A stretch of 64,000 bases of DNA. Origin: Glycera tridactyla (taxonomy: Eukaryota). Under the pieces are notes generated by a model that saw only the letters and a program-made list of their open reading frames with translations, was not told the origin of the DNA and ran no database searches. Below, in pieces: positions 44,449-63,780 of this stretch. The stretch is from contig OZ286474.1 in the NCBI GenBank assembly GCA_965644265.1, forward strand, positions 61,690,001 through 61,754,000, read 5' to 3'. A program made the position numbers and the translations under genes. Each line of letters starts with the position of its first letter. The stretch's first letter is position 1.

Positions 44449-46051
44449 TAATATGTTATCGTCTTGCTTCACTTTTTGACAACTCACTGTCATATATTCC
44501 ATCAACTAGTTAGTCAGTGCCCCCAGAAGGTAGCATTCATTTGGATTTCGCATTAATTTTCTCATGATTGATGCTCGTGTTGGGTTCAAGTCTTGATGCG
44601 TAAATACCTGATGCGCGGATGATGTAGATTCGGTATCACTCATGATGGAGCACCACATCCATCACCTCCTCACTTACTAACATTCTGTTGTCATGGTAGT
44701 CATCCATGTCTATGACGTTCCAAAAGCCCTCTGGCAGGTCAAGTCGTGTCACATGTATGCAACATCATGTGACTTTTGATGTTTGTCTACGGGTTGGTGA
44801 GAGGGGTAAAGGGGACGTCCACGACTCATCGTTGACCACTGCACTGATCTCCTAATATACGGATTGTACCTGGAGAATCCGCTCACATGCCGTCCTGGCT
44901 GTTTGACGTATCTCATTACGATACAACGCCGTCGTTTTTATATGTTGATGTTTTTCTGTTCTACTTATTATGTGTTCTTGAACTTTTCCGAGTTTCTTCA
45001 TCTTCGAAGGTTATCCAGAAGATGACAAACGCCCGGAATCCAGATCGCAATTTTCATCATATTCGCGTGCATGATACGATGAAAAGGGGAGAAAAGGTCG
45101 CAGCCCAACCAAAATCTACTTTGTGTCTTCTGTATATCTTAGAAATAAGAAACCCTAAAATCATGTCATCCCAGTGATTATTTTCTATCTAGTATGATGG
45201 AATGAACGTGGACAATTTAAGATTGGCCGTTTCTGATTTTATATGATTCTGAAATGAATGTTCCTATCGGAATCATGATCTAAATGTGAGCGAATAGATC
45301 ATTCTCGATTGTAGATGCCGTCCCTTCCCTCGTATACAATGGAAACTGCCTGATGGATATGATCATATATTAGATAAACAGCAGCAGAGTGCATGTCTCT
45401 AGCAGCCACTCTAATCAGCACCCAATTAGACATGTCATAAAATAATTAATGAGCAGGTGTTGGGTATTGAAGATTAGACAAGATGTGTATGTGTGATGAC
45501 ATCACCTGTGATGACGTGGCCATGCTGACCTCAGTGCGCGCATGAATCACCTGGGATGACGTGGACATACTGACGTGGAAGTGATGAAATACACCTGGTT
45601 AGCATCATGGTGTCGCGCATGCATGCTACTGTCGGTGGTATTTAGGTTCTATAATGGCTGTGCTATGGATGATTGAGCATGATGATTTGACAGTTCTGTA
45701 CTGAATGCAGCTATTGCCTTCACCTGACTTGAGTTGAACAGGTGGTTTTATCATTGAATGTAAGACACATCATTCCATTGTTGCAGGAGCTTGCACTCAT
45801 TGGTAACGGTACAGGTATTTGTGGGATAGGAGAAGCATTCATTCGTGGTTGGGTTACCGGTTCACATGATTCATTTGCTTTGGAAGTAAGACTCCAACAG
45901 AATAAATCTTCATCATTTTTTTTTTAATTTCTACAGTTTTGATTACAATGATATAAAGTTGTACACAAATTTCAACTCATACCGCGTGACAGAATCTTCA
46001 TCATTGGCTGAGATTTGACATACATAAGCACAGTTGCACACATTCCATCTA

Positions 46052-46849
46052 TCAATAGTTTTCCATTTCTACTTCACGGGTCAATTCTACATATTTCCAA
46101 TGAGTATTCCATGAATCTTCAGCAAGGTATCGCTCATCATCATTTGAATATTTCCCTTCAACCATTCCCAGTGCACTCTCGCTTCCAAAGCAGTTATTAG
46201 CTATGGAAGATGCAACTTGGAATTCTTCCCACACCGAGATCGGTTTCATCATATTCAATCCACAGGTTCTACAGCATATATACTTCTTTTCAGGTTTACT
46301 ATATACATAATGTCCACATTTGCTACAAATCACAATGATAGAACCATTAATGCTCCATGCATACTTATTTACAGGTAAACATGCTACAAAACACACATCC
46401 CCTTTTTCATCAAATGCTGGCTGCACTTCGCAAATACCAGCATGAACAACTTCAATGCCGTCATCAGCGTCAGCCTCCATACACCTATCATATCCATCAT
46501 ACAAAAAGTGAAAAGCATCTACATTTTCTGCAGAGACCGAGTCATAATTACATTCCATCTCACCAGCTTCATTGATACAATCTTGTTCATATTCTGCAAC
46601 CGAATCGGTTGCTACAACAGTTTCACCTTCACTCATTGCTTCAGGAATATCTAGGAATGACTGACTTCCAAATACATCTAGTGCATTCCAACTCACAATA
46701 GGGGCAACCTGATTACACCTCACTTTCGGATTAGTTGATTCATCTCCGTTGGAAATATCTTGTGGATTAATACAGCAAAATATATTGAAAATGCTTCTCA
46801 ATTTTATCTTCAACACACATTTGTTTGGTAATTTTTTCTTAGACACCAT
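46052..46849 (-). CDS. Polinton accessory protein, acidic, with a CxxC-x12-CxxC zinc-ribbon-like motif
   Basis: 265-aa ORF overlapping the protease end; CSKC...CRTC. Confidence 0.6.
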   Translation of the reverse strand: MVSKKKLPNKCVLKIKLRSIFNIFCCINPQDISNGDESTNPKVRCNQVAPIVSWNALDVFGSQSFLDIPEAMSEGETVVATDSVAEYEQDCINEAGEMECNYDSVSAENVDAFHFLYDGYDRCMEADADDGIEVVHAGICEVQPAFDEKGDVCFVACLPVNKYAWSINGSIIVICSKCGHYVYSKPEKKYICCRTCGLNMMKPISVWEEFQVASSIANNCFGSESALGMVEGKYSNDDERYLAEDSWNTHWKYVELTREVEMENY

Positions 46850-47283
46850 CTATATTTCACCAGAAACTCGTTTTGTTGAAGGTTAAGTATGCTGAAATCT
46901 TTCACATATGTTTCAAAAGATACACCCATACATCTATTGTATGCAAAGTCCAAACAATATAATCCACATGTGTTTGTGTTCATTTGCTGTATCCTTTCAT
47001 TCAAGTAGCAATAAGTTTCACAGTTCCTTTTGATCAACGAGTTCAAGTAGTGATTAGGTATTCCGGCTAATGAATCAAAATATTCACAGTGCCCATTTCT
47101 TGGAAAATAAACGCAGATCCAGTGTGTTCCTCTCTCACTAGAAATACTAGTGTTCGCAATGAGAAATGATGGGAAATGCCGAATCACCAATTCTTGTGCA
47201 TCATCAGCAGCAAATACTCCCAAGAACTGATCCCGTGTTGCTACCTCTATAGATAATATCGAACTGAGCTCTAAGTTATTCAT
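46810..47283 (-). CDS. Adenain-like cysteine protease (virion maturation)
   Basis: GTHW (His), YFDS (Asp), IQ...TCGLYC (Gln, Cys), preceded by FLGVFAAD. Confidence 0.95.
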   Translation of the reverse strand: MNNLELSSILSIEVATRDQFLGVFAADDAQELVIRHFPSFLIANTSISSERGTHWICVYFPRNGHCEYFDSLAGIPNHYLNSLIKRNCETYCYLNERIQQMNTNTCGLYCLDFAYNRCMGVSFETYVKDFSILNLQQNEFLVKYRWCLRKNYQTNVC

Positions 47284-48554
47284 TTCATGACATTTCTTTT
47301 ATCATCTATCTTGATCATGCAAGGGCGTTTCCCGTAAATAACAACTGTTGCTGCTTTTGTTGTCGGGTTTTTCAGTTTGATTGTCAAACGTAAATGACCA
47401 GACAGCGGGACAGCTAGTGAATCATCTGAATTCAAATCACTTAACTGGAAACGATATAATGTAAAACCACCTTTATATGCTTGTTTGCTTAACCTAGCCT
47501 TTGGAAACATGCTTAGAAATCCGTCTAAATAAGAATCTTCCTCATAGTCCAATGAGATGGGACCAGGGAAAACGCTACGGCCGTTGAATGATAGGTCCAT
47601 TGAAATACAGTCCATGTGCTTGAAATTGAAAGGATTTTTAGTCAAGGATCCATTGAAGGCATCTGAGTCCACAATTCCCACAATAACCTCAGATGGAGTT
47701 TCACTATTGAATAGATTTTCATACACTTTCCCATATTCCCCACTCGGGATAACTTGTATTGATAGCATCGAATCATTAAATGCATATTCTGCTGGTTTTA
47801 ATTTCATTGCTTCAACATGTCCGAGTATCACAGCTGGATCCATCTTTACCATAACAACTTGGAGAATAGCATCAACAATTTTCAACTTGTAATCATTTGT
47901 CATATCATCAGATGATAAAACAAACTCTGAGCGTGAGGGTTGAAGCCTTAACCTGATAGGAACATTATTCAGAAGTAGTTTAGGTTGGTTTGCAAAATCG
48001 CACCATAGTCTCCCGATCATCTGCACTGTTTTACTTTTTTTGAAACTGCTTGCTCTATAATTGTAACCCATATTCTTTTCTTCTCCACTCACTGCTGTAT
48101 TATCCACCTGACCCTCTGTATCCATCCAATAAATCTCTGGGGTTAACCAGTTCTCATCATAGTCCTTGTTCAACAGACTCTCAATATAGCACTTGTACGG
48201 CCAATAATTTCCAGTACTGGATGTGCTTATACCCTGAATCATGAGATCAACCTGAGAGAACATTGATTGTAATGTCAAATTACATGGACCAACATTTGCT
48301 TCATCAGCTATTACTGATTGAGTACTATCATCATTCACAATCTTTGCTCTCACCTTTAACTTTGAGTTTTTGAGATCAATGTAGTGATACGGTGAATTGT
48401 TTGGTACTTCAAAATCAATTGTTGATCCGTCAATAATTTGACTTATAGGGCGAAACTCAATCAATTGTTTTTCGAGGGTTCCTTTCTCTATAGGGAGCGA
48501 TTCAACCAATGATATGTTAGAGCTATGACATTCTTCTCTCGCTGTATCACTCAT
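47280..48554 (-). CDS. Major capsid protein (double jelly-roll, Polinton PY/hexon-like)
   Basis: 424 aa; EEC..NISL, IEFRPIS, IDFEV, YIDLKNSKL, LQSMFSQV, YPYKCYIE, NPFNF are characteristic of Polinton MCPs; located between the core protein and the protease. Confidence 0.9.
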   Translation of the reverse strand: MSDTAREECHSSNISLVESLPIEKGTLEKQLIEFRPISQIIDGSTIDFEVPNNSPYHYIDLKNSKLKVRAKIVNDDSTQSVIADEANVGPCNLTLQSMFSQVDLMIQGISTSSTGNYWPYKCYIESLLNKDYDENWLTPEIYWMDTEGQVDNTAVSGEEKNMGYNYRASSFKKSKTVQMIGRLWCDFANQPKLLLNNVPIRLRLQPSRSEFVLSSDDMTNDYKLKIVDAILQVVMVKMDPAVILGHVEAMKLKPAEYAFNDSMLSIQVIPSGEYGKVYENLFNSETPSEVIVGIVDSDAFNGSLTKNPFNFKHMDCISMDLSFNGRSVFPGPISLDYEEDSYLDGFLSMFPKARLSKQAYKGGFTLYRFQLSDLNSDDSLAVPLSGHLRLTIKLKNPTTKAATVVIYGKRPCMIKIDDKRNVMK

Positions 48555-48895
48555 TTTCGGGCTTTGTTTTCACGGCGCTTCCACACCCTTTTCCTACGCT
48601 TGCAGCTCCCAGACTTAGCTGACTTAGATCCACAAGGACTCTTGCGTTTGTGATTTGGATTGGATGTGCTAGCTTTATTTATAGACTGCTTCAATTGTGA
48701 TTCGGCAATATCTATTGCCTGCTGTGCAGGTGAGACTACTTTGATTGTCGGCGGTGTATCGCCGGAACCTTTCTGTACCATCACATATCGCCCCTTGCGA
48801 TGAGGTTTATTCCCAGCCATATGAATGAAATGTGTTCTCCATTTTTTCGGGTCAGGTGCTGCACTTAGTTCTGTTTCTTGAAGTGAAGTAAACAT
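48551..48895 (-). CDS. Small basic putative core (DNA-condensing) protein
   Basis: 114 aa, Lys/Arg-rich C-terminus, VQKGSG protease-site-like motif and VSPAQQA..AES.L motif seen in small Polinton ORFs. Confidence 0.65.
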   Translation of the reverse strand: MFTSLQETELSAAPDPKKWRTHFIHMAGNKPHRKGRYVMVQKGSGDTPPTIKVVSPAQQAIDIAESQLKQSINKASTSNPNHKRKSPCGSKSAKSGSCKRRKRVWKRRENKARK

Positions 48896-49302
48896 CGTGA
48901 TGGATTGTTCAACTCTGTGAAATAAGCAAGTGCACTCTCGTCTTTTATACTTATGCGAACACTGTCAATATACTTTCGGGTAACCGGGTGGTACAAGGGA
49001 TTATTCACATCAATCACTTGCATGCTCCCGCTTTTTTCTGACAAATTTACAATATTCAAAAGCGGGAGAAAGCGATCACGAACATAGCTCTCTTGAATGA
49101 AATCGCATACAAATAACAGACGTGTGAATTGCATGATTTTTGGGGAAACAACAGCTTGGAGTAGTGCACACTGCCATCCGTCCCCGACCAAATTCATAGA
49201 TGTTGGTAAAATGACAGTGTAATCATGCGGTTGATTGCTGGAATATGTCTCAATTGAATCCTTAGAGGTAAGGAAGAGAAAAAATTCGTCATGTTCATCC
49301 AT
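48865..49302 (-). CDS. Minor capsid protein (single jelly-roll, penton-like)
   Basis: FFLFLTSKDS...N..HDYTVILP...L.GDGWQCAL; CDFIQESYV...PLL; LYHPV; ISIKD; LHF. Confidence 0.88.
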   Translation of the reverse strand: MDEHDEFFLFLTSKDSIETYSSNQPHDYTVILPTSMNLVGDGWQCALLQAVVSPKIMQFTRLLFVCDFIQESYVRDRFLPLLNIVNLSEKSGSMQVIDVNNPLYHPVTRKYIDSVRISIKDESALAYFTELNNPSRCLLHFKKQN

Positions 49303-49339
49303 TGCCAGTCGAGTGAGTGAATTGGGTGTGGTGTTTTAT

Positions 49340-50440
49340 CTACTTATATTTAGCAAAGTCATTTTTATCGATCCAACTGTTATATGAATTCGACCATCCT
49401 TTCCATTTTACAAGATACTGCTTCTTCCCTCTATGCTTCCGCTGTTTGATCACTCTTTCTACATCATATTCAGTGGTTTCATCAATAGTTACTCTTTGTA
49501 GTTCAGCTGAATAAAAACTACCACCGATTGGATTGTTTTTCCAATCTTTGAGTTCGTATTGCGGTATATTCTGGTTGAACTTCAGTTTTGTGATAATGAA
49601 TAATTCTTGCGTCCATTTTTCATCATATTCTTTATCATATGGTTGCCTAATGGATGAAATCCTAACAATATCATCCACTTTATATTTATGTTTGATGTTA
49701 TTTTTTGGAAATGGAACCTTAGACTGGTCAGATTCATATAGTTTATTCCACAAATCAAAATTGTCAGTGCTTGTTACATCAGCTGGAGCTTTATCGATAG
49801 ATGAAAGTATAGTATTATTATAACTTTTAACTATATCTGGCAAAATATCTATCCAACGATTTGTCTTGTTGTTTCTCATGTATCCAACCAGTTTTGTCTT
49901 GATAGTTTTTATTGCACGCTCTGCTATGTTTGCTTTTTTATCTGATTGTGCAAAGAACTGATCAATATTTTGCTCTCTCAATACTGATGCCACTGTCTTG
50001 TTTTTAAACTCGCTACCAAGGTCTGAACGAATTTTTTCAGGTTTAACAGCTGTAGTGGAAAATATGTCTTCTAGCATGGAACTAACTTCCCCCGCTTTCA
50101 ATGTTTTCATTGCTCTTGCAAAAATGAACTTGCTGAATATATCAATACCGAGTATGAAATACTTTTTTCCGTCATTAGTTGATGCATACTTTGTCATATA
50201 TGCAGTATCGAAATCCCATTGATAGTTGGGATAAGGTGCGATTACTTTAGGACGTTTGTTCACTTTCTGACTTGCACGATGAAGTGTGTAATAATCCTGA
50301 GCTTCCAACCATTTTGTTATTTCTCCTCGATTAAATTTAGCTCCTCTTCTTGTAACATTTTTCCTAATTTTTCCAAGAGAGGAAAAACTTGCAGGTGTCA
50401 CTGGATTCAGCGAAACAGAATTTAAGGGAGTGTCTTCCAT
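49340..50440 (-). CDS. Retroviral-like DDE integrase with C-terminal chromodomain
   Basis: YTLH, WDFDTAYM (D), IDIFSK, IRSDLGSEF (D), IAERAIKTIK (E); chromodomain YDVERVI...YLVKWKGW...NSW. Confidence 0.96.
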   Translation of the reverse strand: MEDTPLNSVSLNPVTPASFSSLGKIRKNVTRRGAKFNRGEITKWLEAQDYYTLHRASQKVNKRPKVIAPYPNYQWDFDTAYMTKYASTNDGKKYFILGIDIFSKFIFARAMKTLKAGEVSSMLEDIFSTTAVKPEKIRSDLGSEFKNKTVASVLREQNIDQFFAQSDKKANIAERAIKTIKTKLVGYMRNNKTNRWIDILPDIVKSYNNTILSSIDKAPADVTSTDNFDLWNKLYESDQSKVPFPKNNIKHKYKVDDIVRISSIRQPYDKEYDEKWTQELFIITKLKFNQNIPQYELKDWKNNPIGGSFYSAELQRVTIDETTEYDVERVIKQRKHRGKKQYLVKWKGWSNSYNSWIDKNDFAKYK

Positions 50441-51042
50441 TTGAATACAGCACGCTGTTGTCCTGTCGTTTGCTCCTCAGGCTCTCTAGCATGACTGGTA
50501 GATTTATGAGGTACAAGTCTCCTTTTCTTCTTTGTGAACGGGGGAACACCTGGTGGTGGTGGCTGTGGTAGAGGTACTGCTGCACCTGCTAGGTTATTTG
50601 ATTGTAAACTCTCTGCAACGGTATCATTACTTCCTCCGCCTGACAATTGTAACACTTTCTGAATGACATCTGAATTCAACAGTCCATTCATGATTTCAAT
50701 AATGTTTGAATTAGGTACAGTGGAATCCCCAGCTAGTAGTTCCCCGTCCTTATTCCATTTCACGGTCTTTCTCAATATGCTCAATATCTGTTTCGCAGTC
50801 TCTATCATTGCAGCAGGTACTTTTTTCAAGATGTTGCCGTCACCAGTGTGTGTTTCTTCATCTGACACAAAATTTGCTTGCATATGTCTTTCCTTGTTAT
50901 CATCAATTGCACTATCTTTCTCTGTTTCAGTGATTGGTTGAATTTCTGCTGTATTCACAGGAGCATGGATACATTCCTTCAGTGATTGATATTCATCTGA
51001 AGGAAGTAAAACCATTTTCTTCACATAATCCATTCTATTCAT
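50422..51042 (-). CDS. Conserved Polinton protein (PZ-like)
   Basis: KKMVLLP N-terminus, AK.IL..L...KWNKDGEL...VPNSNI core, LSGGG protease-like site, terminal KW. Confidence 0.7.
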   Translation of the reverse strand: MNRMDYVKKMVLLPSDEYQSLKECIHAPVNTAEIQPITETEKDSAIDDNKERHMQANFVSDEETHTGDGNILKKVPAAMIETAKQILSILRKTVKWNKDGELLAGDSTVPNSNIIEIMNGLLNSDVIQKVLQLSGGGSNDTVAESLQSNNLAGAAVPLPQPPPPGVPPFTKKKRRLVPHKSTSHAREPEEQTTGQQRAVFKWKTLP

Positions 51043-51353
51043 ATCAGTGAAAGTATTATGTCCTTTGCAAACATCAGTGTATCATATACACTGCGGTAAT
51101 GTTTCGCAATGAGTTCACCTGATCTTTTCCCACTATATTTTACAATTTTTTCTAAGAGAGATCGTCTCCTTTTAATCTTCGCCTTCTGTACAGGTGTCAG
51201 TTCAATATCTCCGTCTAGGATATTATGCAGAATCTCTCTCACTGCCTGAATCTGCTCTCTATCTAATGTATCTAAAAGAGCATGCGCCTGTAGTGTTGAT
51301 GTGGTCAATAGCAATCTTAAAAAGGAAGGTGAATTCTCAAGTGACTCGCTCAT
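51039..51353 (-). CDS. Conserved small helical/basic Polinton protein (probable start MSESL at 51353)
   Basis: ALL...REQIQAVREI.HNIL.GDI.LT..QK.KIKRRR..L pattern is typical of a Polinton small ORF near the ATPase. The track ORF begins at a TTG (51488). Confidence 0.7.
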   Translation of the reverse strand: MSESLENSPSFLRLLLTTSTLQAHALLDTLDREQIQAVREILHNILDGDIELTPVQKAKIKRRRSLLEKIVKYSGKRSGELIAKHYRSVYDTLMFAKDIILSLI

Positions 51354-51399
51354 TTGTATAGATGTTTCCTGTTCTGTGGTCACAGCAAGAATGAGGAGA

Positions 51400-52083
51400 T
51401 CACTTAGGAACATAAACAATTGTACTCTCATCAGGGAATATTTTAGATCTAAGCTGATGCTGACGAATGCGACGTGGGGATCGATCAATAACTAAATATC
51501 CATAATCTTCAGAAATTGCATCCTTATACGCATTGACCAACTGTTTGCATATCCCCATCTGTTTCCCTAAAATCTCGATGTGGAGAAGATCAGAACATTC
51601 AAACAAAATGATGTAATGCGCATTCATATTAATTGTTCTGCTAGCCTTCCCTTGACAAAAAAAATTTTGGTTGACATATAAAACAGACAAATTTTTATGG
51701 TGTGAACCTCTAGTGAATAAGGTTTGAACACTTTTACTTTCACTTATGGACTGCATTAAATCATCGAGAATTATAATACAATGTCCAGCGCCTTTTCTGA
51801 ACTCATCAATGTGCTCCTCGGTTGGTATTCCTTCGTGGAATTCTATTCGCTGCGATATTGTCTGCATGTCAGTAAATACTGGTTGAAAAATCGCGTAGCA
51901 GTATAAGACCCGTTCTGGTATCTCATCTGGGAATAGTGCGGGAAGATGCTGCAATAGTCTTCTTATCCATGTTGTTTTACCAGACTGGGTGCACCCGGAG
52001 AGAACCATGGTCGTTGGTGCGTGGAATGGATACATTCTCTTTGAGCAGCTTGTGGTTGACTGTGACAGTTTGCGCACTGTCAT
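51400..52083 (-). CDS. A32/FtsK-like DNA packaging ATPase
   Basis: Walker A GCTQSGKT, Walker B IIILDD, FTRGSHH, NQN, IN.NAHYIILF, YGYLVID. Confidence 0.95.
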   Translation of the reverse strand: MTVRKLSQSTTSCSKRMYPFHAPTTMVLSGCTQSGKTTWIRRLLQHLPALFPDEIPERVLYCYAIFQPVFTDMQTISQRIEFHEGIPTEEHIDEFRKGAGHCIIILDDLMQSISESKSVQTLFTRGSHHKNLSVLYVNQNFFCQGKASRTINMNAHYIILFECSDLLHIEILGKQMGICKQLVNAYKDAISEDYGYLVIDRSPRRIRQHQLRSKIFPDESTIVYVPK

Positions 52084-52264
52084 ACATTATATATTTCAGT
52101 TTCTCGGACAGAATTCGATTCAGCATTCTCTCACTTTTTTCTACTCTACGCTGGAAATGCTGTCTGTCAATGGCAATTTGCATCCATACCCCTTTCCGTT
52201 CTTCTTCTGCCCCAGAGGGAATGAAATGTTGCTGCAACTCGTCGGAGAAAGCAACATGCGGCAT
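51977..52264 (-). CDS. GADD34/ICP34.5/DP71L-like PP1 regulatory protein (eIF2alpha phosphatase adaptor)
   Basis: HVAF (RVxF-type PP1 motif) followed by RKGVWMQIAIDRQHFQRRV, matching the RxGxWxxxAxDRxRFxxRI eIF2alpha-binding consensus at 1 substituted position. Sits in the gap between pPolB and the ATPase, co-oriented, ATG with A at -3. Confidence 0.8.
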   Translation of the reverse strand: MPHVAFSDELQQHFIPSGAEEERKGVWMQIAIDRQHFQRRVEKSERMLNRILSEKLKYIMYDSAQTVTVNHKLLKENVSIPRTNDHGSLRVHPVW

Positions 52265-52389
52265 TATAGAAGCAGTATAGACTGAACTGCGCTAATACAA
52301 CTGCTTTCCCGAATGAAAATGGATTTCCAAGTAAAACCATACTCATGATCCTCCAGTATGACTGAAAAGATTGAACGTGATTAGCACAT

Positions 52390-55300
52390 TCATGCACGTC
52401 CATCCTTCGCTGAGGTTAAATGTTTCTGTCTCACAATGTGCCAGATCAATCCCATTTTATTTTGTCCTGGAGCGGAATCCCGATTGCGAACTAGGGCTAC
52501 TCTCTCATTCAATCCGCAGCTGAACCACCTTTCTCTAGCATGTGTGTGCACGAAAATTAGTTCTCTGTCTTTAGTTTGAAGTAATACTGCTTTTATTTGC
52601 GGATACAATCGGGTTTTTGCTAAACTAATTTGAAGTAAAACATTATCACATTGTCTCAACCATTCTTCACTGGATTTTATCTCATTATCTATCTTTAGGA
52701 GACTGTCTGTGCTGTTCGCGATGATTGCATCTGATATGAATTCAACTGCTGAGTGGAACAGTGCTTTTTGATGAACAAATCCCTGCAATATTGACTCATA
52801 GGTTGTATGATTATCATTCAAAATGAAGATTCCTTGATGAAATGGGGATAGTATATGACCAGAGTTGAAAACATATAAATCTCTATCATCAATTGGAGAG
52901 AGGAGAATGTCTAAGGGTTTGGTATTTATCCCATCATCTAATACCATTCTTTTGCAATAAAAGTATGAAAAACCACACTTTCTTTGTTTGTATGTGTAAA
53001 CAGTGCCATTTCTCGCTCTGATCCCTTGATTTATATGCATCACAGGTTGTGCTGTTTCAATCACAGATCTGAATATAGACAAAGCATCAGTTAATGTTGA
53101 TTTGTTCACACCTTTACAACTAACCTTATTCCCATTATCACTCTTCAATAGATAACATTTGGATGATAACGCAATCATTTCATCACCACGCGCCTCTTCC
53201 TTAAACAATCCTGGGGTACGAGAATCCAGTTTTGCATGTTTTGTACAGCAGGACCTCGTGAACCAAATATCTCTCCCGTTAGGAATGAAATTGGAATTAT
53301 CATCACATTTCTGCAATGTCATGTGCTCCAGCTTTTCTTTCATGTGCGGTTTCACTGCATCTGCAAATGTTTCAGAGCTGAGTGCCATGTAGGCAGAATC
53401 TGTATCCATTTCTATGTATTGATAATCCTTCCTATTAACATAAACATCAACAAAATCATAATAGAAAGAAAGCATATGCATTTTCGCATATTGCAGCACA
53501 AAATAACCCAGCTGGATTGGGAGATTCATTGTAATTGAACGTGGACTCATTTCAAGTTCATATAGATCATGTGTCAATTCGGTCATTGATCTGAATTTCG
53601 GATCATTCATTTCAAAAAGTAGCTCATTTTCACTTTTGACATATTTAATGTTCTGATACTTTGTCTTCTCGATCAAGAGACTTCCGTATGAACTGTTCCC
53701 AAGGAGTTTCATTGCCTCGCCTATAATTGCCATATCTGGATTTTCATCACCTAGTCTTCGTGCTTTGGTTACATTTTCCTGAAACGTCTTAAAACATGGA
53801 GATTTTGAATACTCAACAACTTGATGAACCTGTGTTACATATAAACCATGAAGCAGATACCACCTCAGCAGAGGTGTTGCAATCAGCATGCGTCTTGCTT
53901 TCATTCCACCAACTAAACATTTTCGTGGGTTTGTGGAGAGATTATTTCTGTATGCATGGTTCTGCATATGCTCGCCTATGCTTTCAAATGGAATATCAAC
54001 TGTGCAGAACAGTGGAGTCATCTCTGAAAAGTATTCATATGGTGTGAGCTCAGTATCACTTTTTATTGTCCAAGATTCAGGTGTTTCAATATCAACTTCA
54101 ACGGCACCGAAGAGCTCTTCTGACACAACAGCTTGTATAATATCATCTTGAGTGGTGCTTTCCTTATGTTTTCTGTAGAAATTTGGGAGAAAATGATCTG
54201 CAGAGTTCTGAATTGATGGATCTGTTTTCATTTGTGTGATAAAATCACATTCCCACACATGAACAACTTTGTATCCAGAATGGGTTAGAAATGTCCTCCT
54301 TTCAACTGTTCTTTTATAGCGTTTTTGGAGATTCTTTACATCTTTGCTTGATGTCATTCTCCTATTCAACCAGCATTCATTTGGATCATGTCCATGCCAA
54401 TAGCATCCATCAAACTCGTAAACTGTATTGGCTTCAGGATCGAACCCGTCAACAAGGTAAGGTCCTATTCTAGTTTCAACTGCGTTATTCAGTTTGTGTA
54501 GTATGCAACTATTTTGCTGTTTTATTTGATACTCTAGCCAAATATACATCCTGAAAAACTTTTGTGCTATCACTGGTTTGAATTCATCTGCGGCAATTCG
54601 TCTGACATATATACCAGTTGGCATTGGTTGTGCGAGCGCCCAAAGATATAGTGCATTAGCATCATATCCTATCACACTCTTGCAAACCTTGTCACCTCTA
54701 ATCAAGGTTTCATCACATTTATGATGTCGTGTGAATATGATACTTGGACCACCAACAACATTTTTCTTGATTATATGATACAAGTCTTCATCATTATGTG
54801 ATATGAGACTAAAATAAGCTTTATTTTCTTTTGCAGATTGGAATAGGAGTTTTCGAGCAATGCCAGGTACGGATATTGCATTTTTGAAGATATCAACCCC
54901 CATTTTGAGATAGAACTGACGCATTTTCTCAGTTGCTTCAACAAAAGGACCGACATCTAAATTGTTATAATATATCAGAAAATCTCTCATAGTTTTCATT
55001 CCATTTTGTTCCCATATTTCCAATAGGCGGGTGTAATTTTCATGTCCAGTTTTAGGAGTGAGACCCTTACCATTCCAATTGGAAAATTCTTGCTCTAAAA
55101 TATTTGCTTGTTTCAAGCTTGAATAAAAAGCATCATAGCAAGGAAGAGCTTGTTCACTCAACTTTTCTGGTGTAGTCAACCATTCATATGGGAAGAAAGA
55201 TTTCTTTTCATCAATCCCAAAAGCCTTGAGAAATTTTACATAGCTAGATCCGGGGGCTAAGAAATGAGAGATGTCTAAAAAAATGAAATCATTCACAGCT

Positions 55301-55647
55301 ATGCAAGCATATGCAGAACCTTTCTTGATAACATTCACTTTTTCATCTGTTTCAGCTAAAAGCAGATCAATGAAGTATGCTTTGATCAAATTCAAATCAT
55401 ATCGCGCAGAGTTGAACCCAAGTACTGGAACCTGATGACAATATTTTTCAAAATCCTCACGTAGTTTTGTAATTTTCTTCAGTAGTATTTTGCAATTAGG
55501 GTTTGCTGTAACTGTAATTTCACCAGCTGACTGACACGCTGCATCGATAATCACTATGCCATTGTTTTCATCATTTCCAATACCACTGTCAGCAAGACTG
55601 GAGTGAACTCCATTGATAACAGCAGTATCATCTTCACCATCATCATC

Positions 55648-55681
<34 letters not shown>

Positions 55682-57888
55682 GAAGCAACAGCATCAGCTG
55701 TAGCACCAATTGTTATACTTGTACTGCTATCAGTAATGTCTGTACGTGGATTAATATCAATGTCATGAAATGTCACACGGTCTTCAAAGAACATATCAGT
55801 TTCTGAGATGGTTGAATTTTGATCATCAATAGCTTCCCATTTCTGTTTCAATGTATCCAGTTGTGTGAAAACATCTTTCCATTTTGCGTAGGACTGAGAT
55901 TTCACAGTTTGCACAATTTCAACTAGATACGCATGGAAAGATTGTAGCAGTTTTTTAGGATCTGAATCAATCAGACAGTTCGGTGTAGTGAATGTGTCAA
56001 CATTACTTGCTACACTCACAGAGATGGGAATATGCTCATGCTGCCATAGTAACTGTTCTGTCACCTGCTCATTCTTTGTGTTCAAAATTGCTTCGAAATC
56101 ATATACAATGAACCAATCAAAGTACTTTCTTTCATCAGCAATTTTGATACCGTATTCTTCAAGTCTCTCAAATATTGTTGTAGCATTTGAGTGAAACCCG
56201 CCTGAAAACTTCAATTTTGTCCCTGACGAACATACTCTTACATGCTGCTTCAGTTTTTTTCGAGTATTGAAATGACGGTGACAGCTAGGGCAAGCAAATT
56301 TCTTTGCATAATCAGAAAATGACTTCACATAACTCAAGTGTTTCTCATGCAAATTGAGATACATTTTATCATGGAACTTCGCACTGGAACTATACACTGG
56401 AGTGACTGAACCATCTGCATAGAGCATGAATACACCAACATTGATGCTGAAACATTTTTCAAAGGCAGGTAAGTCAGCAATTTCTATTCCACGATATTTC
56501 TTAGGATCAGTAGGGGGAGAATTTGCGCAGTTCCTCATCCACTGTTCATATAGTGATAACACATCTGCAGTCACTGGTCTAACTTTTTGTGATCTGTGTA
56601 CTGCAAGACATCTGAAAATGCATAATGAATCTTGATACGGCTCTCCAGTTCTTTTATCACACTCTAGAGAAATGATATGTGGATTAGACTTGATATAATT
56701 TGGGAGGGAACCTGCACCGAGGGTATATGCTGTTTTGTAGACTCGTATATTGATATTTGTGACAAGAAACGGTTTCCAGTCTGTGTTCGGTCTCTGCATT
56801 CTAATGTAGGACTCTACATCTATATCCCTTATACGATTCAAAACCTTATGGAGATCATCTTTATTTGTGATTAAAAGTGGAAAAGTGAAAATATTTGCAT
56901 TCTTGTATGGAACAAAGTAACGATATCTATCCCTATCTGTAGCAACATCAACATTTTCAGTGGAAGAAATCCGCCTCAATATCAAACCAAATGAGATGTT
57001 CACTTTGAAAGAATTTGATTGTTGGGAATAGATAGTGACTAAGTGTTGCGAAAGTTCATTGACACCGTTCTCCAAATCATTTGTTGGAAAGTTGTATGTG
57101 GAACTGAAACGTGCATGTCTATGCGGACGCAAAATATGCAGTTTGTTTCTGTTGTATACACTTTCTAATTCTGTATCTATCACCCCATCGTCATGCTGCC
57201 AAGGAGGCATGCTCCATGGATACGAATGAAGTTCAGCTGCACTCCCATCACCATGCATCATGTTCCTATGAATATACAACAAATGTGTCGTGCTGAACTT
57301 ACAGTCACAGTCATAGCATGAATAGCTTTGACGTGCTGTTTGTGTTGAATGAATAGCGAGATGTGGTGTGAGTTCAGCATGTGAAGGGAATGTTTCTTGA
57401 CATATGTGACAACTAACAGAACAGCAAGTCAATACATGATTCCTAAAATTCTGTGGACTGAAAAAATCCAAGTAGCATGTTTGACATCTATATCTCAACT
57501 GTCTCGAATGTTTCAATCGCATATGTTTTCTGAGATTGAAAATTCTAGTGAAAGTACATTGACATATCTCACATGAAAAGTGATTATGCTTTGAAGAAAT
57601 TACATGTTGTTGTATACCACTTGCGTTGACGTCTTTCCCAGCAGTAGAAGTAGAGGTAACAGTTGCCATAGGTATATTATTCCGTTCCTGGTATTCAGAT
57701 GAAGTTGATGGTTGCGATTGTACAGCTGTAGCACCCCTATTCCGTAATTCCATCCAACGTAAATTCACATGATGGTCATTCTGTAAATTGTTTTTTATCG
57801 CCCAATTTTCAAGTTCCTTTGGATCATTGAAACTGTTCACTATCGTGTTCATGATATATGAACTATCCTCATTCGAGAAGTACTCCAT
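52390..57888 (-). CDS. polB: Protein-primed family B DNA polymerase polyprotein (C2H2 fingers, terminal-protein region, 3'-5' exonuclease, polymerase with Vsr-like insertion, C-terminal NADAR-like domain)
   Basis: 1832 aa intact. ExoI YDFE, ExoII GFNSARYD, ExoIII YNNLDV, motif A YDANALY, motif B KLLGNSSYG, motif C EMDTDS. Confidence 0.97.
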
Positions 57889-58120
57889 GCTGATGTTTAT
57901 CGCCTATTAGGTTAGCAGCTATTTGGATGATAGCGTTAGAGTCTGAAACCTTCTGAAATAGTTCAAATGGAATCGAGAATGACTTCTTGTTTTTATAGTA
58001 AAACAAGACTAGAAGCACCTCAGATTTTTTTCTCACTTTTAGCTGAAGTTCAGGTGTGATGAAAATTAGAAATTGATTTTTCTCTGCAATGTCACGTTGA
58101 TCAAGCTGTGCTTGCGCCAT
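57869..58120 (-). CDS. Small protein, possibly PC4-like ssDNA-binding
   Basis: 83 aa overlapping the pPolB start. LQLKV...VLLVLFYYKNKKSFSIPFELFQKV...II resembles the PC4 beta-sheet plus KGISL...W..L helix pattern. Confidence 0.45.
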   Translation of the reverse strand: MAQAQLDQRDIAEKNQFLIFITPELQLKVRKKSEVLLVLFYYKNKKSFSIPFELFQKVSDSNAIIQIAANLIGDKHQHGVLLE

Positions 58121-58370
58121 CTATGGTATCGTAATCCTCCTCGTTGATTGTTTGTTGAGAGATGTTCCCAGTTGAAAATCCTTCAGTTTTTTTGTTGGAT
58201 AACCACGCTTGTCTATGTTTTTCCAGAGCTACTGCTCTTCTTTCAGCTAGCTGTTTCAACTCGATTGTTTGGAAACGTACTAACTGCTGTTTAACAATGG
58301 AAAGTTCCAACTGTAAATCCTCAATTTTTGCTTCCAGTGCTATAATTGTCTGAATGTATCGGTTAGTCAT
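58101..58370 (-). CDS. Small coiled-coil protein (probable start MTNRY at 58370)
   Basis: Heptads IIALEAKIEDLQLELSIVKQQL. First ORF of the minus-strand cassette, overlaps the next ORF. The track start at 58391 is TTG. Confidence 0.6.
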   Translation of the reverse strand: MTNRYIQTIIALEAKIEDLQLELSIVKQQLVRFQTIELKQLAERRAVALEKHRQAWLSNKKTEGFSTGNISQQTINEEDYDTIDGASTA

Positions 58371-58449
58371 ATTCTCCAAACAGGTACACAAGTTGCTCTA
58401 CTGCATTCAGCATGTGTAACTATATTACAGACAGGTGCAGCAGTCTGTA

Positions 58450-58455
58450 TTTATA
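58450..58455 (-). promoter_or_regulatory. TATA box candidate for the Polinton minus-strand cassette
   Basis: GCTATAAATAC ~80 bp upstream of ATG 58370. Confidence 0.45.
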
Positions 58456-58814
58456 GCATATCAACAACGTTCGCGTTTGTAGCATGACATGACATGCTGA
58501 CCTCATGCTTTATCAGATGAGGGTGTCAAAACATGCACATTCATCCTCCATTGCAATACACCGCATTTAGATTGAGTGTCATCAATGCAATAGTTTCTAC
58601 TATCAAATTGCGATGAGGTTGCAATCATTTACTAGTACCATTTACCATTTGACTGCGAGAAATAAGATCATGCAGAGCGCCATCTAGCGTGACAATCCAT
58701 TGAGTTACGCCCATGCGCTAGCGCCATCTAGCTTCACATGACGCGATAATTTATGCGGTGAAACCACGCGCTATTTGCACATGCGTACCAGATCTTTCCA
58801 CACCGCTGCCCAAA

Positions 58815-60423
58815 ATGAATCGTTGCTACGAAAACCGACATTGTCATTGTAATTGGGTAGGCAAGGCGTTGGAAATGTGGTGCACCGGTATTGGTCCGAA
58901 GGCGGGGTGGGAGAGAGATCAGGCGGAACGAATTTATGTTGATGGACAGCTCGTGTTTGATCGTGCAGCAGGTATGTTTCATTGCGCCTGAGCGATAATT
59001 GCTGTTCACCGTGTTCGAACGTTCTAGATCATGAATAGAGTAACAGGTGCTGACAGAGAATTTCAATTTGTTTACGGATGTTCATGTGTAGTTGAATAGT
59101 GACTAATCACGCCGTGTTAGAGTGAAGGAGGTTTGCCAATGATGGTTCGATGTAACTGCGCATAAAATGTTGATATGCGTGCGCGTGTGTGTACGCGTGT
59201 TTGTAGTTAACTTCATGATAAATGTGCAGAGTTGCTCGAGTTGAACCACGGATTATTTTCTCACATCTCTTGAGCGCAGACACAGTTTGATGAAAGGAAA
59301 AAATTAGCACACAGGTTACACTCAATCCACATTGAATGTTGATATTTAATTGATTTGTGGAGAAATTCCATTCTTTAAAAACTGAATGGTGCAAATGTAT
59401 TAATTCTAGTTTTTAAATGTGAATCTCATTTCAAGAGAGTGGGTTCACACCAACTTTTCTCTTGTCTAGTTGAAATATCAATTATAACATGGGGAAAAAT
59501 CACTCTACTTTTCTTATACATTTGAAAATTTCTGTTTGTTTCAGAACATGGAGTGACTACATCCGCTGCTATCATGGTGGATAAAGATGATCAATATGAT
59601 GTGAATGAGCGAAACATCATACTCTACACAGCTGTGTTCCTGGTTGTGCTAGCTGTGATCTTCATCACTATATGGATGGTTGTTAGTCCAAAAAGTGAGT
59701 ATAACTGCTTTTATTTATTCCTTTGAAATGGTTAAACGGATCAAATCTGTTAAACTGAAGAACAATCAACTGAGAAATAATTGCAAAGATTGGTTCACAC
59801 TTTCCAGGTGCTAAACTGAACTTGAGCTTTATGCTTGAGATTAAGACTTCAACATGATTTCTCATATCAAATCATATAGGAAATGTGCAATCCCTGATTT
59901 ATCTCATTCAAACAGTCTGTAACATTTCCAATTATTCATATAAGAATTAGCCAGATAAATACTCAGCAAATGAAAAGATCAGTCAGCATGAAGAGTTATC
60001 TCACAGATATGGAATTATATGGAAGAAGCAATGTGAACTTTGATTTGAAATGCAACATCAAAAAGTTCTTCATTTCTATTTTCAGTTGAGATCAGAGCAT
60101 GGATCAGGAGGAGGATGGTGTGCGGGAGGGATGCTGATGGAAACAGTGATTCAGTAGCTCCGATTGTTCCTGCAGCTGTTGCTACAACTTCTGTTTCTGA
60201 TGTCACAGCTCCAGCTGCTGCTAGTGTTGATGCAGCAACCGAACGAAGCAAAGATGGAGAGTGTATCAGGATGAAACGGTTGGAGAAATTCCAACCAGAT
60301 CCAACCCCGAGGAGATCACAAAGGTTGCAGAATACAGCAGAGGATGTCAAAAACATTGCGGATGCTGTAGGTGCATCTGCTAATGCTGCTGCAGCAGTTG
60401 TTGCAATTGGGAAGATGGTTTGA
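58815..60423 (+). CDS. Three-exon gene (58815-58971, 59545-59694, 60086-60423) for a 214-aa single-pass membrane protein
   Basis: caaaATG start; GCAG|gtatgt, tttcag|AA, AAAA|gtgagt, ttttcag|TT. Both introns are phase 1 and the spliced frame stays open. TM segment IILYTAVFLVVLAVIFITIWMVV followed by a basic patch (RAWIRRR). Confidence 0.8.
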
Positions 60424-60429
60424 TTCACT

Positions 60430-60610
60430 TGATGATATTTGCTGGAGCATTAATCATTTAGTTCCTTCAGCGCATTAGTATTAGACTTCTTAGTCCAACA
60501 ATATTTCAAAACGAGCAGGTATAATTCATTTGATGACATTTGCAGGAGCATTAATCATTTAGTTTCATCAGTACATTACTGCTAGTCTTCTTAGTCCTGT
60601 AATATTTCAA
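60430..60610. repeat. ~100-bp tandem duplication
   Basis: TTGATGA(T/C)ATTTGC(T/A)GGAGCATTAATCATTTAGTT occurs twice. Confidence 0.8.
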
Positions 60611-60789
60611 TATGACCAAGTGGTGAACATTGAAGCTACAAGCATAGCTTGGTTCTTTATTTCATGCAGGAATAATCATTATTCTACTTGCTGTCTGACT
60701 GTGCCATATGGATGTATTCATATGTCAGGTTTGCAAATATCTGTAAGTCCATGCTTGACAGACGAGTTGATGCAACAAATATCTCCCAC

Positions 60790-61620
60790 TCCAGTTTTTC
60801 TCTTGGTTGATTTTATATTTCATGCAGAATAGTTATAAAATTTGAACTCTGGAACAGATTGTCTATGCGATACGGTTTTGCACTTGCTAGATTTTATATT
60901 TCATGTAGAACAATTTTGAAATTCAAACAGAACAGAATGTAGATTCATGGTGAACAGAAAAGTTGGTGCAACAAATTAGAATGTAGATTCAAACCGAACA
61001 GAAAAGTTGGGACATCCAAACAGAATGTAGATTCCTTGTAAACAGAAAAGTTGGAACAGCAAATCAGAATATAGATTCAAGCTGAACAGAAAAGTTGGGA
61101 CACCAAATTTCTTCCTCTTCAATCTCATAAAAGTTTTCGCACTTGCCTGATTTTATATTTCATGTGAATGTTTTGAAGTATCTGTAGGGAAGTATCTGCA
61201 GGTTTAAACCGAACAGAAAAGTTGGGACATGGAAACAGAATGTAGATTCCGTATAAACAGAAAAGTTGGAGCAACAAATCAGGATATAGATCCAAGCTGA
61301 ACAGAAAAGTTGGAACACCAAATTTCCTCCTCTTCAATCTCATAAAAGTTTTGCACTTGCCTGATTTTATATTTCATGTGAATGTTTTGAAATATCTGTA
61401 GGTTTATTCCAAACAGAATATAGATTCATGCTGGCCAGAATAATTTCTTCGTTTTTATATTTCATCTGAACAGTTTTGAAATTTGAACTTGGAAACAGAT
61501 CTTCTATGCAATATGGTTGTTTTTATTTGTCTTGTTTCGAAATATCTGTAGTTACATGTCAAACAGAAAAGTTGGAGTAACAAATTCCATCCTCAACAAT
61601 CTCAGTAAAGTTTTTATCTG
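60790..61620. repeat. Degenerate nested tandem repeats
   Basis: Recurrent AACAGAAAAGTTGG / AACAGAATGTAGATTC and GCACTTGCCTGATTTTATATTTCATG modules. Confidence 0.8.
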
Positions 61621-62074
61621 CTTGATTTTATATTTCAATCGTGAAGGTTTTCATTTTGCATATGCATCCTATTTAGTAGATGCACTGAAGCAGTACAAGC
61701 TGTAGACATTATATGTAACCTAATTGATCTCAGGAACTGAATCACTTGTTTAGTACTTACACTGAAACAGCAGCAGCTGCTGTCATTATTCTATGTAACC
61801 TAATTGATCTCAGGGAATTGCTTGTTTGTTTGTGTAGAAATGATTGTTATTTGTTTCCTGTTCTGTTTTTATTTGTAAGTATTGGCCCACAAACTACATT
61901 CCGATCATTGATCACATGAGTGCACTAATGCACTCTGATCACATGAATATTTGAATTTCATACTGCTTTGCCTACCCGGAATTGAGATATGGTTCCTCTT
62001 GGTTAGACATGACTGGGTTGACCTGAGAGGGATGAATATGGATTCAACAGGAGGTTAGCAAAGCAGTATAAAAT

Positions 62075-63390
62075 CCAAATATTCTTGCATATTACCCACT
62101 ATCTGCTGCTTCATGTGTGGTTATTGTGGTATATTTCATAGCATACTCACCAATTTTCTACTATTTTCAAGCATGGGTGCTAGTTTCCTGCCAGTTACAT
62201 AAATAGGTAGGGTTATGCTTGAACTGTTAACTACTTCCACTTGCCATCCTTTCAGGTTTTCCAGCTTCCATGTTCAGGGTTCGTGAGTGATGTTTGCTGG
62301 GAGAGAACATCTAGCTTACAAATACATAGGGTAATTCTGTTTGTTGTTATGAATGTGTAATGAATCCTTATACAGAGTCTTCCTCTTGATGTGAAAAATA
62401 AGTGATGCTTTATCTTTGTTTGGATCACAATGGGAGTTGAGACCTGAGAGGAGGGTTTCCCATCTACCTGTCACAGGGTAGCTGACAGATGAGGACTCAA
62501 CTCCCACTGAATAGACAATAATGTTAGCCAGTCTGCCTGACCAGTGTGAAATGAATATAGAACCATTTTCCCAAGTATTCTTGCATATTTCCCACTACCT
62601 ACAGCTTCATGTGTGGTTATTGCAGTATATTTCATAGCATATCCACCCTTTTTTCTACTATTTTCAAGCATGGGTGCTAGTTTCCTGCCAGTTACATAAA
62701 TAGGCAGGGTGTGCTTGAACTGTCAACTACTTCCACTTGCCATCCTTTCAGGTTTTCCATCTTCCATGTTCAGGGATTGTGTGTGTGTTGTTTGCTGGCA
62801 GAGAACATCTAGCTTTCAAAATACATAAGGTAATTCTGATTGTTGTTATGAATGTGTAATGAAACCTTATACAGAGTCTTCCTCTCGATATGAAAAAATG
62901 AGTGATGCTTTATTTTTGTTTGGATGACAATGGGAGTTGAGACCTAGAAGGAGTGGTTTCCCATCCATCAGACACAGGGTAGTTGAGATGAGGACTCAAG
63001 TCCCACTGAATAGACAATAATGTTAGCTAGTCTGCCTGACCAGTGTGGAATGAATATGAAACCATTTTCCCAAGTATTCTTGCATATTTCCCACTATCTG
63101 CAGCATCATGTGTGGTTATTGTGGTATATTTCATAGCATATCCACCCTTTTTTCTACTATTTTCAAGCATGGGTGCGAGTCTCCTGTCAGTTACATGAAT
63201 AGGTAAGGGTGTGCATGAACTGTCAACTACTTCCACTTGCTATCCTTTCAGGTTTTCCTTCTTCCATGTTAAGGGTTTGCTAGTGATGTTTGCTGGGAGA
63301 GAACATCCAGCTTTCAAATACATAGGGTAATTCTTATTGTTGTTATGAATGTGTAATGAATCCTTATACAGAGTCTTCCTCTTGATGAAG
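62075..63390. repeat. ~497-bp tandem repeat (~2.7 copies)
   Basis: TTCTTGCATATT(A/T)CCCACTA at ~62082, ~62578 and ~63077. Confidence 0.9.
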
Positions 63391-63709: not shown

Positions 63710-63780
63710 AGCGGTTGCAGCAGCAGCTGCAGCAGCAGCAGCAGCAGCAGCAGTAGCAGCAGCAGCAGTAGGAGTAGCAC
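63710..63780. repeat. (CAG)n microsatellite
   Basis: Direct reading. Confidence 0.9.

What the first reader, a model, noticed from the sequence alone, without database searches (positions are those of the whole stretch)
52420..52878. NADAR (YbiA-like) domain fused to the C-terminus of the protein-primed polymerase
Seen: after the normal pPolB end (KRMVLDDGINTKPLDI) the ORF continues ~170 aa: LYVF..GHILSPF...TYESILQGFVHQKALF...W...NVLLQISLAK..YPQIKAVLLQT.DRELIFVH...RWFSCG...PGQNKMGLIWHIVRQ. Established: this follows the NADAR motif order (F..SNF; SEHYFQA.K; W...VM..AL.AKF.Q...L..LL.T...LVE..D..WG.G; G.N.LG..LM..R). Characterised NADARs hydrolyse N-glycosidic bonds, including removing ADP-ribose from guanine in DNA as the DarT1 antitoxin. 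Seen: several conserved acidic residues look substituted (SEH>ILQ, LVE>LIF, D..WG>E.WFS). Inference: the polymerase carries a reader or diverged eraser of DNA ADP-ribosylation, which could protect strand-displacement intermediates or termini from host ADP-ribosyl transferases. No adenain site precedes it, so it probably stays attached.
Basis: partly seen in the sequence, partly recalled or inferred. Interest (0 to 1): 0.85.

Follow-up and report, generated by a model that had tools for sequence, protein, structure and literature searches.

The report
Pseudo-NADAR tail on Polinton polymerase
A virus-like jumping element in an animal genome carries, joined to the end of its DNA-copying enzyme, a domain folded like enzymes that strip ADP-ribose off DNA; a whole group of related elements has kept this domain, but this copy lacks both catalytic residues, so it likely works as a non-cutting add-on, not as an eraser.

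Summary
The last ~165 aa of the 1832-aa polymerase are a NADAR domain: Pfam E 7e-13; model Z 18.6 to 8BAU. It is not read-through. The fusion occurs in many divergent families of this genome and in 22 of the 120 nearest database polymerases. It maps to one part of the polymerase tree (2-3 changes) and is under purifying selection (dN/dS 0.20-0.25).

The eraser reading fails for this copy. Both catalytic acids (E43, E125 of 8BAU) and the ligands G78, R79 and R93 are replaced; K50 and W89 remain. Only 2 of 78 fused domains keep both acids, against 76 of 114 unfused ones. Several lineages deleted the pocket lid but kept the rest. Most pPolB2 relatives lack the domain.

Best reading: captured once as an active hydrolase, now likely a non-catalytic module. 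One relative has DUF4326, another domain proposed to process ADP-ribose, in the same slot. The fusion was not found in print. The scan had not noted it before, but holds unchecked notes of NADARs on other viral polymerases.

The parts
52405..52887 (-). NADAR-fold domain (residues ~1668-1828), predicted pseudo-enzyme: L1701 at E43, K1708 at K50 (kept), D1734/N1735 at G78/R79, W1743 at W89 (kept), C1747 at R93, F1779 at E125, E1786 at D130, F1789 at W133 (8BAU numbering)
   Evidence: Pfam; model and fold searches; register; residue roles from PMC11543638 section 12
52888..52935 (-). Conserved polymerase end motif and short linker; no adenain consensus site
   Evidence: linker blocks pLDDT 84-92 in the joint model
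52390..57888 (-). Protein-primed family B DNA polymerase, pPolB2/Beta type, 1832 aa, with N-terminal C2H2 fingers, exonuclease and polymerase motifs, probable VSR-like nuclease insertion (~residues 1140-1215) and C-terminal NADAR
   Evidence: class from PMC10748475 passages; motif names recalled
51400..52083 (-). Packaging ATPase (A32-like)
   Evidence: Pfam Pox_A32 E 1.8e-4, just under its cut-off
49340..50440 (-). rve integrase with chromodomain
   Evidence: Pfam rve E 1.2e-9, Chromo E 5.3e-10
47280..48554 (-). Probable major capsid protein (424 aa)
   Evidence: no Pfam match; assigned from position, size and recall only
46810..47283 (-). Adenain-like cysteine protease
   Evidence: Pfam Peptidase_C5 E 0.0022, below cut-off
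45380..45703 (.). Left terminal inverted repeat (324 bp, 99.7% identical to the right one), preceded by a 6-bp target-site duplication
45380..64000 (-). Polinton/Maverick element, 22,107 bp in all; the right end lies 3,486 nt beyond the window; two other copies are 99.6-100% identical over the main aligned stretches

Best explanation
The polymerase of this Polinton ends in an in-frame NADAR-fold domain that lacks both catalytic acids and likely acts as a permanently attached, non-catalytic module of the replicase rather than as an ADP-ribose eraser. Shown: the fold; the fusion; the missing acids; clustering on the polymerase tree; purifying selection; absence from most pPolB2 relatives. Inferred history: an ancestor of one pPolB2 group captured an active NADAR once, probably from the pool of mobile-element NADARs in animals, and probably for removing ADP-ribose from single-stranded DNA displaced during protein-primed replication. 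The catalytic glutamate was then replaced by Tyr/Phe in most lineages and the pocket decayed further, while the scaffold was kept. Inferred present role: a folded accessory domain held close to the polymerase end by a short linker, which supports replication through a new contact (polymerase, DNA backbone through the kept lysine, or a partner protein). Which contact is not established.
For: 1) Both acids lost in 13 of 13 own-genome representatives; 2 of 78 fused versus 76 of 114 unfused domains keep both; 52 of 78 fused have Y/F at E125; 53 of 78 have neither acid. 2) E125-equivalent mutants are dead (PMC11543638 section 12; PMC12945103 passages). 3) G78, R79 and R93 are replaced in this copy. 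The lid and W89 are deleted in L033/L034/L036 and, on a separate branch of the polymerase tree, in P0002-P0005/P0193 and kin, yet the C-terminal half stays. 4) dN/dS 0.195 (bootstrap 0.11-0.31) and 0.247 (0.15-0.39) in the two unsaturated pairs, against 0.09 and 0.08 for the polymerase; pN/pS 0.35-0.49 in the two deleted-form pairs, which are saturated. 5) Presence/absence needs 2 changes on a 154-row tree (shuffled mean 45.7) and 3 on a 61-row tree (shuffled 20.3). In the domain tree 124 of 132 unfused rows form one side, support 93. 6) Positions conserved mainly in fused forms: linker Trp 47 of 77, His 53 of 74, Cys 54 of 83, last-helix Trp 54 of 73; the canonical last-helix Arg falls from 101 of 103 to 31 of 60. 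7) The linker is short and modelled as ordered.
Against: K50 is invariant in 13 of 13 own-genome representatives and D130 is acidic in 12 of 13, which looks like selection on the old pocket. E-to-Y/F also occurs in 19 of 114 unfused NADARs, so it may mark a ligand-binding or altered-chemistry type, not a dead site. Net charge is 0 here and median 0 across 86 fused domains, so there is no basic DNA-binding surface. 98 of 120 relatives manage without the domain, and it appears to have been lost at least once or twice. Deep branches are weakly supported and unrooted, so gain versus loss is not fixed. No activity was measured.
Confidence: 0.5

Rival explanations
1. ADP-ribose reader: the domain no longer cuts but still binds ADP-ribose on DNA or protein, and would shield or bypass the mark, or recruit the polymerase or the host eraser to it.
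For: K50 in 13 of 13 own-genome representatives and 48 of 79 fused rows; W89 69 of 79, D130 50 of 80, W133 48 of 83. 5 of 78 fused domains keep E43, K50 and R/K93 with Y/F at E125, the pattern expected of a binder. DUF4326, proposed to act on ADP-ribose phosphates (PMC9503650 passages), fills the same slot in P0161. The host has an intact NADAR.
Against: In this copy G78, R79, Y84, D86 and R93 are replaced or absent. Pocket deletions are tolerated in other lineages. DUF4326 was seen in 1 of 120 proteins, from one metagenomic contig, and not in this genome.
Confidence: 0.28
2. Decaying relic: the domain has no job now and persists only because a misfolded tail would harm the polymerase.
For: dN/dS is 2-3 times that of the polymerase; tails range from intact to heavily deleted; losses occurred; 7 of 7 sampled other pPolB2 and 20 of 20 sampled pPolB1-type copies in this genome lack it.
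Against: Truncation at the natural polymerase end is an easy exit, yet 12 families whose tails are 25-37% identical to this one keep it, as do 73 database proteins. Fused forms have their own conserved positions.
Confidence: 0.14
3. Active eraser with changed chemistry: this copy still removes ADP-ribose from DNA bases at the replication fork.
For: [quoted passage not shown] P0014 and P0016 are polymerase fusions with E43, K50, W89, E125, D130 and W133 all present.
Against: No acid at E43, E125 or the DarG1 position in this copy, and no conserved substitute next to them across the 13 own-genome representatives. No guanine-type transferase family match in the host (weak).
Confidence: 0.07

Closest known systems
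YbiA-type NADAR hydrolases (Phytophthora NADAR 8BAU, E. coli YbiA 2B3W; PMC11543638)
   Same: Fold (Z 18.6 and 16.5); K50 and W89 kept; same order of helices and strands.
   Different: Both catalytic acids and G78/R79/R93 replaced; fused to a DNA polymerase; longer loop before the last helix.
DarG1 antitoxin (8BAT) and phage AdfN/gp30.3 (PMC11543638, PMC11825919)
   Same: NADAR core. AdfN is a virus-encoded eraser protecting viral DNA replication, the job proposed for the ancestor of this fusion.
   Different: Weaker structural match to 8BAT (Z 7.6); no D171-type acid, no basic N-terminal extension, no transferase gene among the element ORFs scanned; those proteins stand alone and are active.
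pPolB2 / Beta PolB of Polintons (Jeong 2023, PMC10748475; Starrett 2021, PMC8502044; Krupovic 2024, PMC11161782)
   Same: Polymerase type, probable VSR insertion, integrase, ATPase, protease, TIRs and 6-bp TSD.
   Different: Described extra domains are TP, vOTU, HNH and VSR. NADAR occurs 0 times in the three main texts and in the supplements held as text for two of them.
NADARs in other mobile elements: Ectocarpus Gypsy Pol, oyster Tx1 LINE ORF1 (PMC12477816); RNA-virus polyproteins (PMC9503650)
   Same: NADAR captured by a selfish element and tied to its replication proteins. Zinc-knuckle ORF1-like NADARs (P0073, P0085, P0110, P0112) are among the unfused hits.
   Different: Those go through RNA and mostly keep both acids; this is a DNA polymerase fusion that has mostly lost them.
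Nematode SNA-3 (PMC9303266)
   Same: Animal nuclear protein in which one of three NADAR domains lacks the conserved residues: a precedent for a retained degenerate NADAR.
   Different: Host trans-splicing factor; the role of its degenerate domain was not tested.

Membership tests
NADAR superfamily (PF08719) | Profile match above the curated cut-off | tested here: met
   49.5 bits in the whole protein, 52.5 for the tail alone, cut-off 35.1
NADAR superfamily (PF08719) | Helical core flanked by two small sheets (YbiA fold) | tested here: met
   Z 18.6, rmsd 2.1, 157 aligned to 8BAU
Active NADAR N-glycosidase (YbiA, DarG1, phage types) | Catalytic E125 (or D171, or His) at the distal ribose | tested here: not met
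   F1779; no D/E at the DarG1 position in 78 of 78 fused domains
Active NADAR N-glycosidase (YbiA, DarG1, phage types) | E43/E88 on the opposite side of the ribose cleft | tested here: not met
   L1701; no acid in 13 of 13 own-genome representatives
Active NADAR N-glycosidase (YbiA, DarG1, phage types) | Phosphate-binding lysine K50/K95 | tested here: met
   K1708; invariant in alignment A1
ADP-ribose-binding NADAR pocket (8BAU) | Ligands G78, R79, Y84, D86, W89, R93, D130, W133 | tested here: inconclusive
   W89 kept; D130 to E and W133 to F; G78, R79, Y84, D86, R93 replaced or absent. Several of these also vary among unfused NADARs, so binding cannot be decided from sequence.
Active NADAR N-glycosidase (YbiA, DarG1, phage types) | Hydrolysis of guanine- or cytosine-ADPr | not testable with these tools
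   needs an assay
DarTG1 antitoxin | Neighbouring DarT transferase gene and basic N-terminal extension | tested here: not met
   No transferase family among the 10 element ORFs scanned; the domain starts directly after the polymerase
Polinton/Maverick | pPolB, rve integrase, ATPase, protease, TIRs, 6-bp TSD | tested here: met
   ATPase and protease matches are below Pfam cut-offs
pPolB2 subgroup with VSR insertion (PMC10748475) | VSR-like nuclease inside the polymerase; far from the PF03175 type | tested here: inconclusive
   No PF03175 match for this protein; weak REase match E 0.14 at 1185-1220; a relative is named VSR endonuclease by its source (P0206); named relatives are molluscs, an echinoderm and lancelets. 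No direct comparison with the paper's sequences.

The most novel reading that the evidence does not exclude
The C-terminal slot of Polinton polymerases is a recurring docking place for ADP-ribose-handling domains (NADAR once, DUF4326 independently), because invertebrate hosts ADP-ribosylate the single-stranded DNA or ends of replicating Polintons. The few intact fusions would be polymerase-tethered erasers, and the common Tyr/Phe forms would be the first NADAR-based ADP-ribose readers. That would expose a DNA-ADP-ribosylation defence against DNA viruses in animals, and give a ready assay for it.
Probability: 0.25. Interest if true: 0.85.

Novelty: new variant of a known kind. Interest (0 to 1): 0.55.

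Why it matters
Whether animals use DNA base ADP-ribosylation against viruses and transposons is open; PMC12945103 (passages) says endogenous G- or C-ADP-ribosylation in eukaryotes may exist but has not been found. A NADAR fixed to a viral DNA polymerase across a whole group of Polintons is a footprint of such pressure. The group supplies a natural series from intact through pocket-kept/acid-lost to pocket-deleted, so erasing, reading and scaffolding can be compared within one family. It also adds a domain to the described pPolB architecture. For this copy the payoff is smaller: it is probably a pseudo-enzyme in a domain that most relatives do without.

Tried and rejected
Stop read-through or assembly artefact: rejected.

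Universal pPolB feature: rejected. My first own-genome search used a query containing the tail and missed the tail-less pPolB2 group; (polymerase-only query) found it.

Proteolytic release by adenain: no consensus site at the junction in 12 of 12 (pattern recalled).

Basic DNA-binding surface: net charge gives no support.

Complex prediction of polymerase 823-1664 with the NADAR: no answer, score 0.00, alignment not used; no evidence either way.

Foldseek of the joint model returned only the NADAR matches; the partial polymerase found none.

phmmer of the single tail against PDB found nothing significant; the profile did. A word-indexed search with the tail alone found nothing; with the alignment, four proteins.

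Host searches for PF22596 and PF14216: no match; both weak negatives in a genome with introns.

Expression: no RNA holder listed; the contigs laid cannot show transcription.

Host range of the fused forms: none of the 20 proteins looked up carried an organism name.

Rows set aside before the 114-row count: 8 short unfused proteins that fall among fused rows in the tree (6 probable fragments, 2 stand-alone intact NADARs, P0053 and P0069), and rows with a gap at either acid (8 fused, 10 unfused). The unfused set was found with a profile of fused domains, so it leans toward them. Saturated dS pairs were not used for dN/dS.

Not in print rests on these searches: 11 (two hits, both name coincidences), 42, 43, 59, 60, 88, 109 (0 papers), 110 (5 unrelated listings). 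Subscription journals, Repbase reports, figure images and bioRxiv supplements were not seen.

Full report
Verdict. It is conserved across a group of elements and I did not find it in print. In this copy it is predicted not to be an enzyme.

Observation. The ORF 52390-57888 (minus strand, 1832 aa) runs 171 residues past the polymerase end motif. Pfam NADAR covers residues 1679-1822, E 7.3e-13, above cut-off. The ESM Atlas feature search gave NADAR in all ten best hits (best score 0.94; recognition 2228, slightly under the tool's mark). A profile of 13 own-genome tails hits 8BAU (E 2.6e-7) and 2B3W (E 2.3e-4). The model (pLDDT 84.6, pTM 0.79) matches 8BAU at Z 18.6 and 2B3W at Z 16.5, with unrelated rows at 4.5 or less. 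Foldseek agrees in PDB. In the viral library 29 matches reach E<=0.001, and those with a name are NADAR or YbiA-type proteins or a nidovirus polyprotein.

Setting. The gene lies in a 22,107-bp Polinton that starts at 45380, with 324-bp TIRs and a 6-bp target-site duplication. Two other copies are 99.6-100% identical over the main aligned stretches, so the family is young. Integrase, ATPase and protease genes follow the polymerase. The polymerase does not match PF03175 and has a probable VSR insertion, which places it with pPolB2/Beta PolB as described in PMC10748475 (passages) and PMC8502044 (passages); I did not compare it with their sequences.

Distribution in this genome. A query of the last 336 residues gave 150 match rows at 32-100% identity. 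Of 40 loci cut out, those that reach the polymerase end carry the tail, in frame or, in broken copies, as the next fragment. Twelve divergent representatives have tails 25-37% identical to this one. Twenty of 20 sampled PF03175-type polymerases lack it. A second pPolB2 group at about 40% identity also lacks it in 7 of 7 sampled, six of them stopping two residues after the end motif.

Distribution elsewhere. Of the 150 best hits among 1.84 billion representatives, 45 have polymerase sequence before the NADAR. Of the 120 nearest full-length polymerases, 22 have a NADAR tail and 98 do not. The named ones (Tegillarca, Pinctada, Haliotis, Mytilus, Argopecten, Pecten, Holothuria, Branchiostoma) all lack it.

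History. On a 154-row polymerase tree the trait needs 2 changes against a shuffled mean of 45.7 (FastTree). On a 61-row subset chosen by hand (34 of 56 with, 27 of 98 without) it needs 3 against 20.3; a branch with support 96 sets 23 tail-less rows apart, and four tail-less rows are nested among those with the tail. In the domain tree, 124 of 132 unfused domains form one side (support 93), and the other 8 are short proteins among the fused rows. One gain with one or two losses is the simplest reading, but the trees are unrooted and their deep branches weak. The unfused hits include zinc-knuckle, ORF1-like proteins, which fits the report of NADARs in oyster Tx1 LINE ORF1 and in Ectocarpus Gypsy elements (PMC12477816, passages). 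A donor was not tested.

Active site. PMC11543638 (section 12 read whole) names E43 and E125 at the distal ribose; K50, R79, W89, R93, W133 and D130 at the phosphates; and G78, V81, Y84 and D86 at the adenosine. D171, the E125 equivalent, and K95 are needed for activity. In a Streptomyces YbiA-type NADAR, E167D and E167Q are dead (PMC12945103, passages). Mapped through, this copy has Leu at E43, Phe at E125, Asp/Asn at G78/R79, Cys at R93, Glu at D130, Phe at W133, and keeps K50 and W89. A two-residue insertion after F1779 makes the D130 register slightly unsure. All 13 own-genome representatives lack both acids and all keep the lysine. Among 78 fused domains with both positions aligned, 23 have E43, 3 have E125, 2 have both and 52 have Y/F at E125; among 114 unfused, 90, 79, 76 and 19. 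P0014 and P0016 are partial polymerase fusions with the acids, lysine and tryptophans present. At the other extreme L033, L034 and L036 lack about 35 residues with the lid and W89, and a separate branch has a similar loss.

Selection. In the two pairs with unsaturated dS, dN/dS is 0.195 and 0.247 for the tail (bootstrap upper limits 0.31 and 0.39) and 0.09 and 0.08 for the polymerase. The domain is maintained, less strictly than the polymerase. Fused forms have conserved positions that unfused ones lack, and have relaxed the canonical last-helix arginine. In a joint model of residues 1250-1832 (pLDDT 87.7, pTM 0.76) the linker blocks score 84-92; this shows a short ordered link, not docking. 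Net charge is neutral.

How it likely works. The domain is translated with the polymerase, and no adenain consensus site separates them, so it goes where the polymerase goes. An active ancestor there would be well placed to clear ADP-ribose from displaced single strands, as phage AdfN does in trans for T4 DNA (PMC11825919, passages); this step is inferred. In most lineages the catalytic glutamate is gone and in some the pocket is gone, yet the scaffold stays under selection. I therefore rank a non-catalytic accessory module first (0.50), an ADP-ribose reader second (0.28), a relic third (0.14) and an active eraser last (0.07).

Hints of an ADP-ribose theme. P0161, from the tail-less side of the tree, carries DUF4326 in the same slot (E 1.9e-19). 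PMC9503650 and PMC7824862 (passages) link DUF4326 to ADP-ribose processing and to DNA replication components. This is one protein from one metagenomic contig. The host has a three-piece, apparently spliced NADAR gene with both acids. No Scabin/CARP-1-like match was found (weak). Four earlier scan notes describe NADARs joined to other viral polymerases; I did not check them and count them only as leads.

Literature seen. Named section: PMC11543638 (section 12, plus passages). Passages: PMC9503650, PMC11161782, PMC12477816, PMC12945103, 10.64898/2026.10.13.758929, PMC10748475, PMC11481870, PMC11825919, PMC8502044, PMC7824862, PMC9303266, PMC13469147, 10.64898/2026.07.01.735732. Abstract and outline: PMC11125620. 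Supplements searched as text: PMC10748475 and PMC11161782, no NADAR; figure images and bioRxiv supplements were not seen and could hold a domain label. The viral survey PMC9503650 has 45 mentions of NADAR and none of polintons or adintoviruses.

Scores. New variant of a known kind; interest 0.55. A specialist would not expect the fusion, and the intact-to-degenerate series makes a real question testable. This copy is probably a pseudo-enzyme, and the domain is optional for the polymerase family.

Noticed in passing
P0161, residues 1489-1569 (database protein): A pPolB2 with DUF4326 instead of NADAR directly after the polymerase end; a single metagenomic example.
   Followed up: partly
P0014, P0016, P0053, P0069 (database proteins): Two polymerase fusions with both catalytic acids group weakly (support 80) with two stand-alone intact NADARs, one with an N-terminal C2H2-like finger: either the ancestral state or a later replacement by an active domain.
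   Followed up: partly
L089:3905-6860 (G000:C34): Host NADAR gene in three pieces with E43, K50, G78, R79, W89, E125, D130 and W133 present.
   Followed up: partly
P0073, P0085, P0110, P0112 and kin: ORF1-like proteins with a zinc knuckle followed by a NADAR with both acids; probably the Tx1-type LINE ORF1 noted in PMC12477816.
   Followed up: partly
P0006, P0007, P0012, P0023 and kin: Proteins with 3-7 tandem NADAR domains, some with both acids and some with Tyr/Phe at E125.
   Followed up: no
G000, whole genome: At least three polymerase groups of Polintons coexist: PF03175-type, pPolB2 with NADAR, pPolB2 without; many long open frames in each.
   Followed up: partly
window 55600-55680 (minus strand; approximate): Acidic run inside a long insertion between exonuclease motifs I and II; many tail-less relatives end in a short acidic tail.
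   Followed up: no
window 39923-44418: A 4.5-kb fold-back element with 733-bp arms (95%) made of internal repeats and no long ORF.
   Followed up: no
window 22992-31543 (minus strand): Endonuclease-reverse transcriptase ORF (22992-25445), a GDSL esterase-like ORF (28024-28926) and an 874-aa coiled-coil ORF (28919-31543): retroelement-like.
   Followed up: no
window 60400-63400: Tandem and inverted repeats inside the right part of the Polinton, including a ~496-bp repeat at 62075-63393.
   Followed up: no
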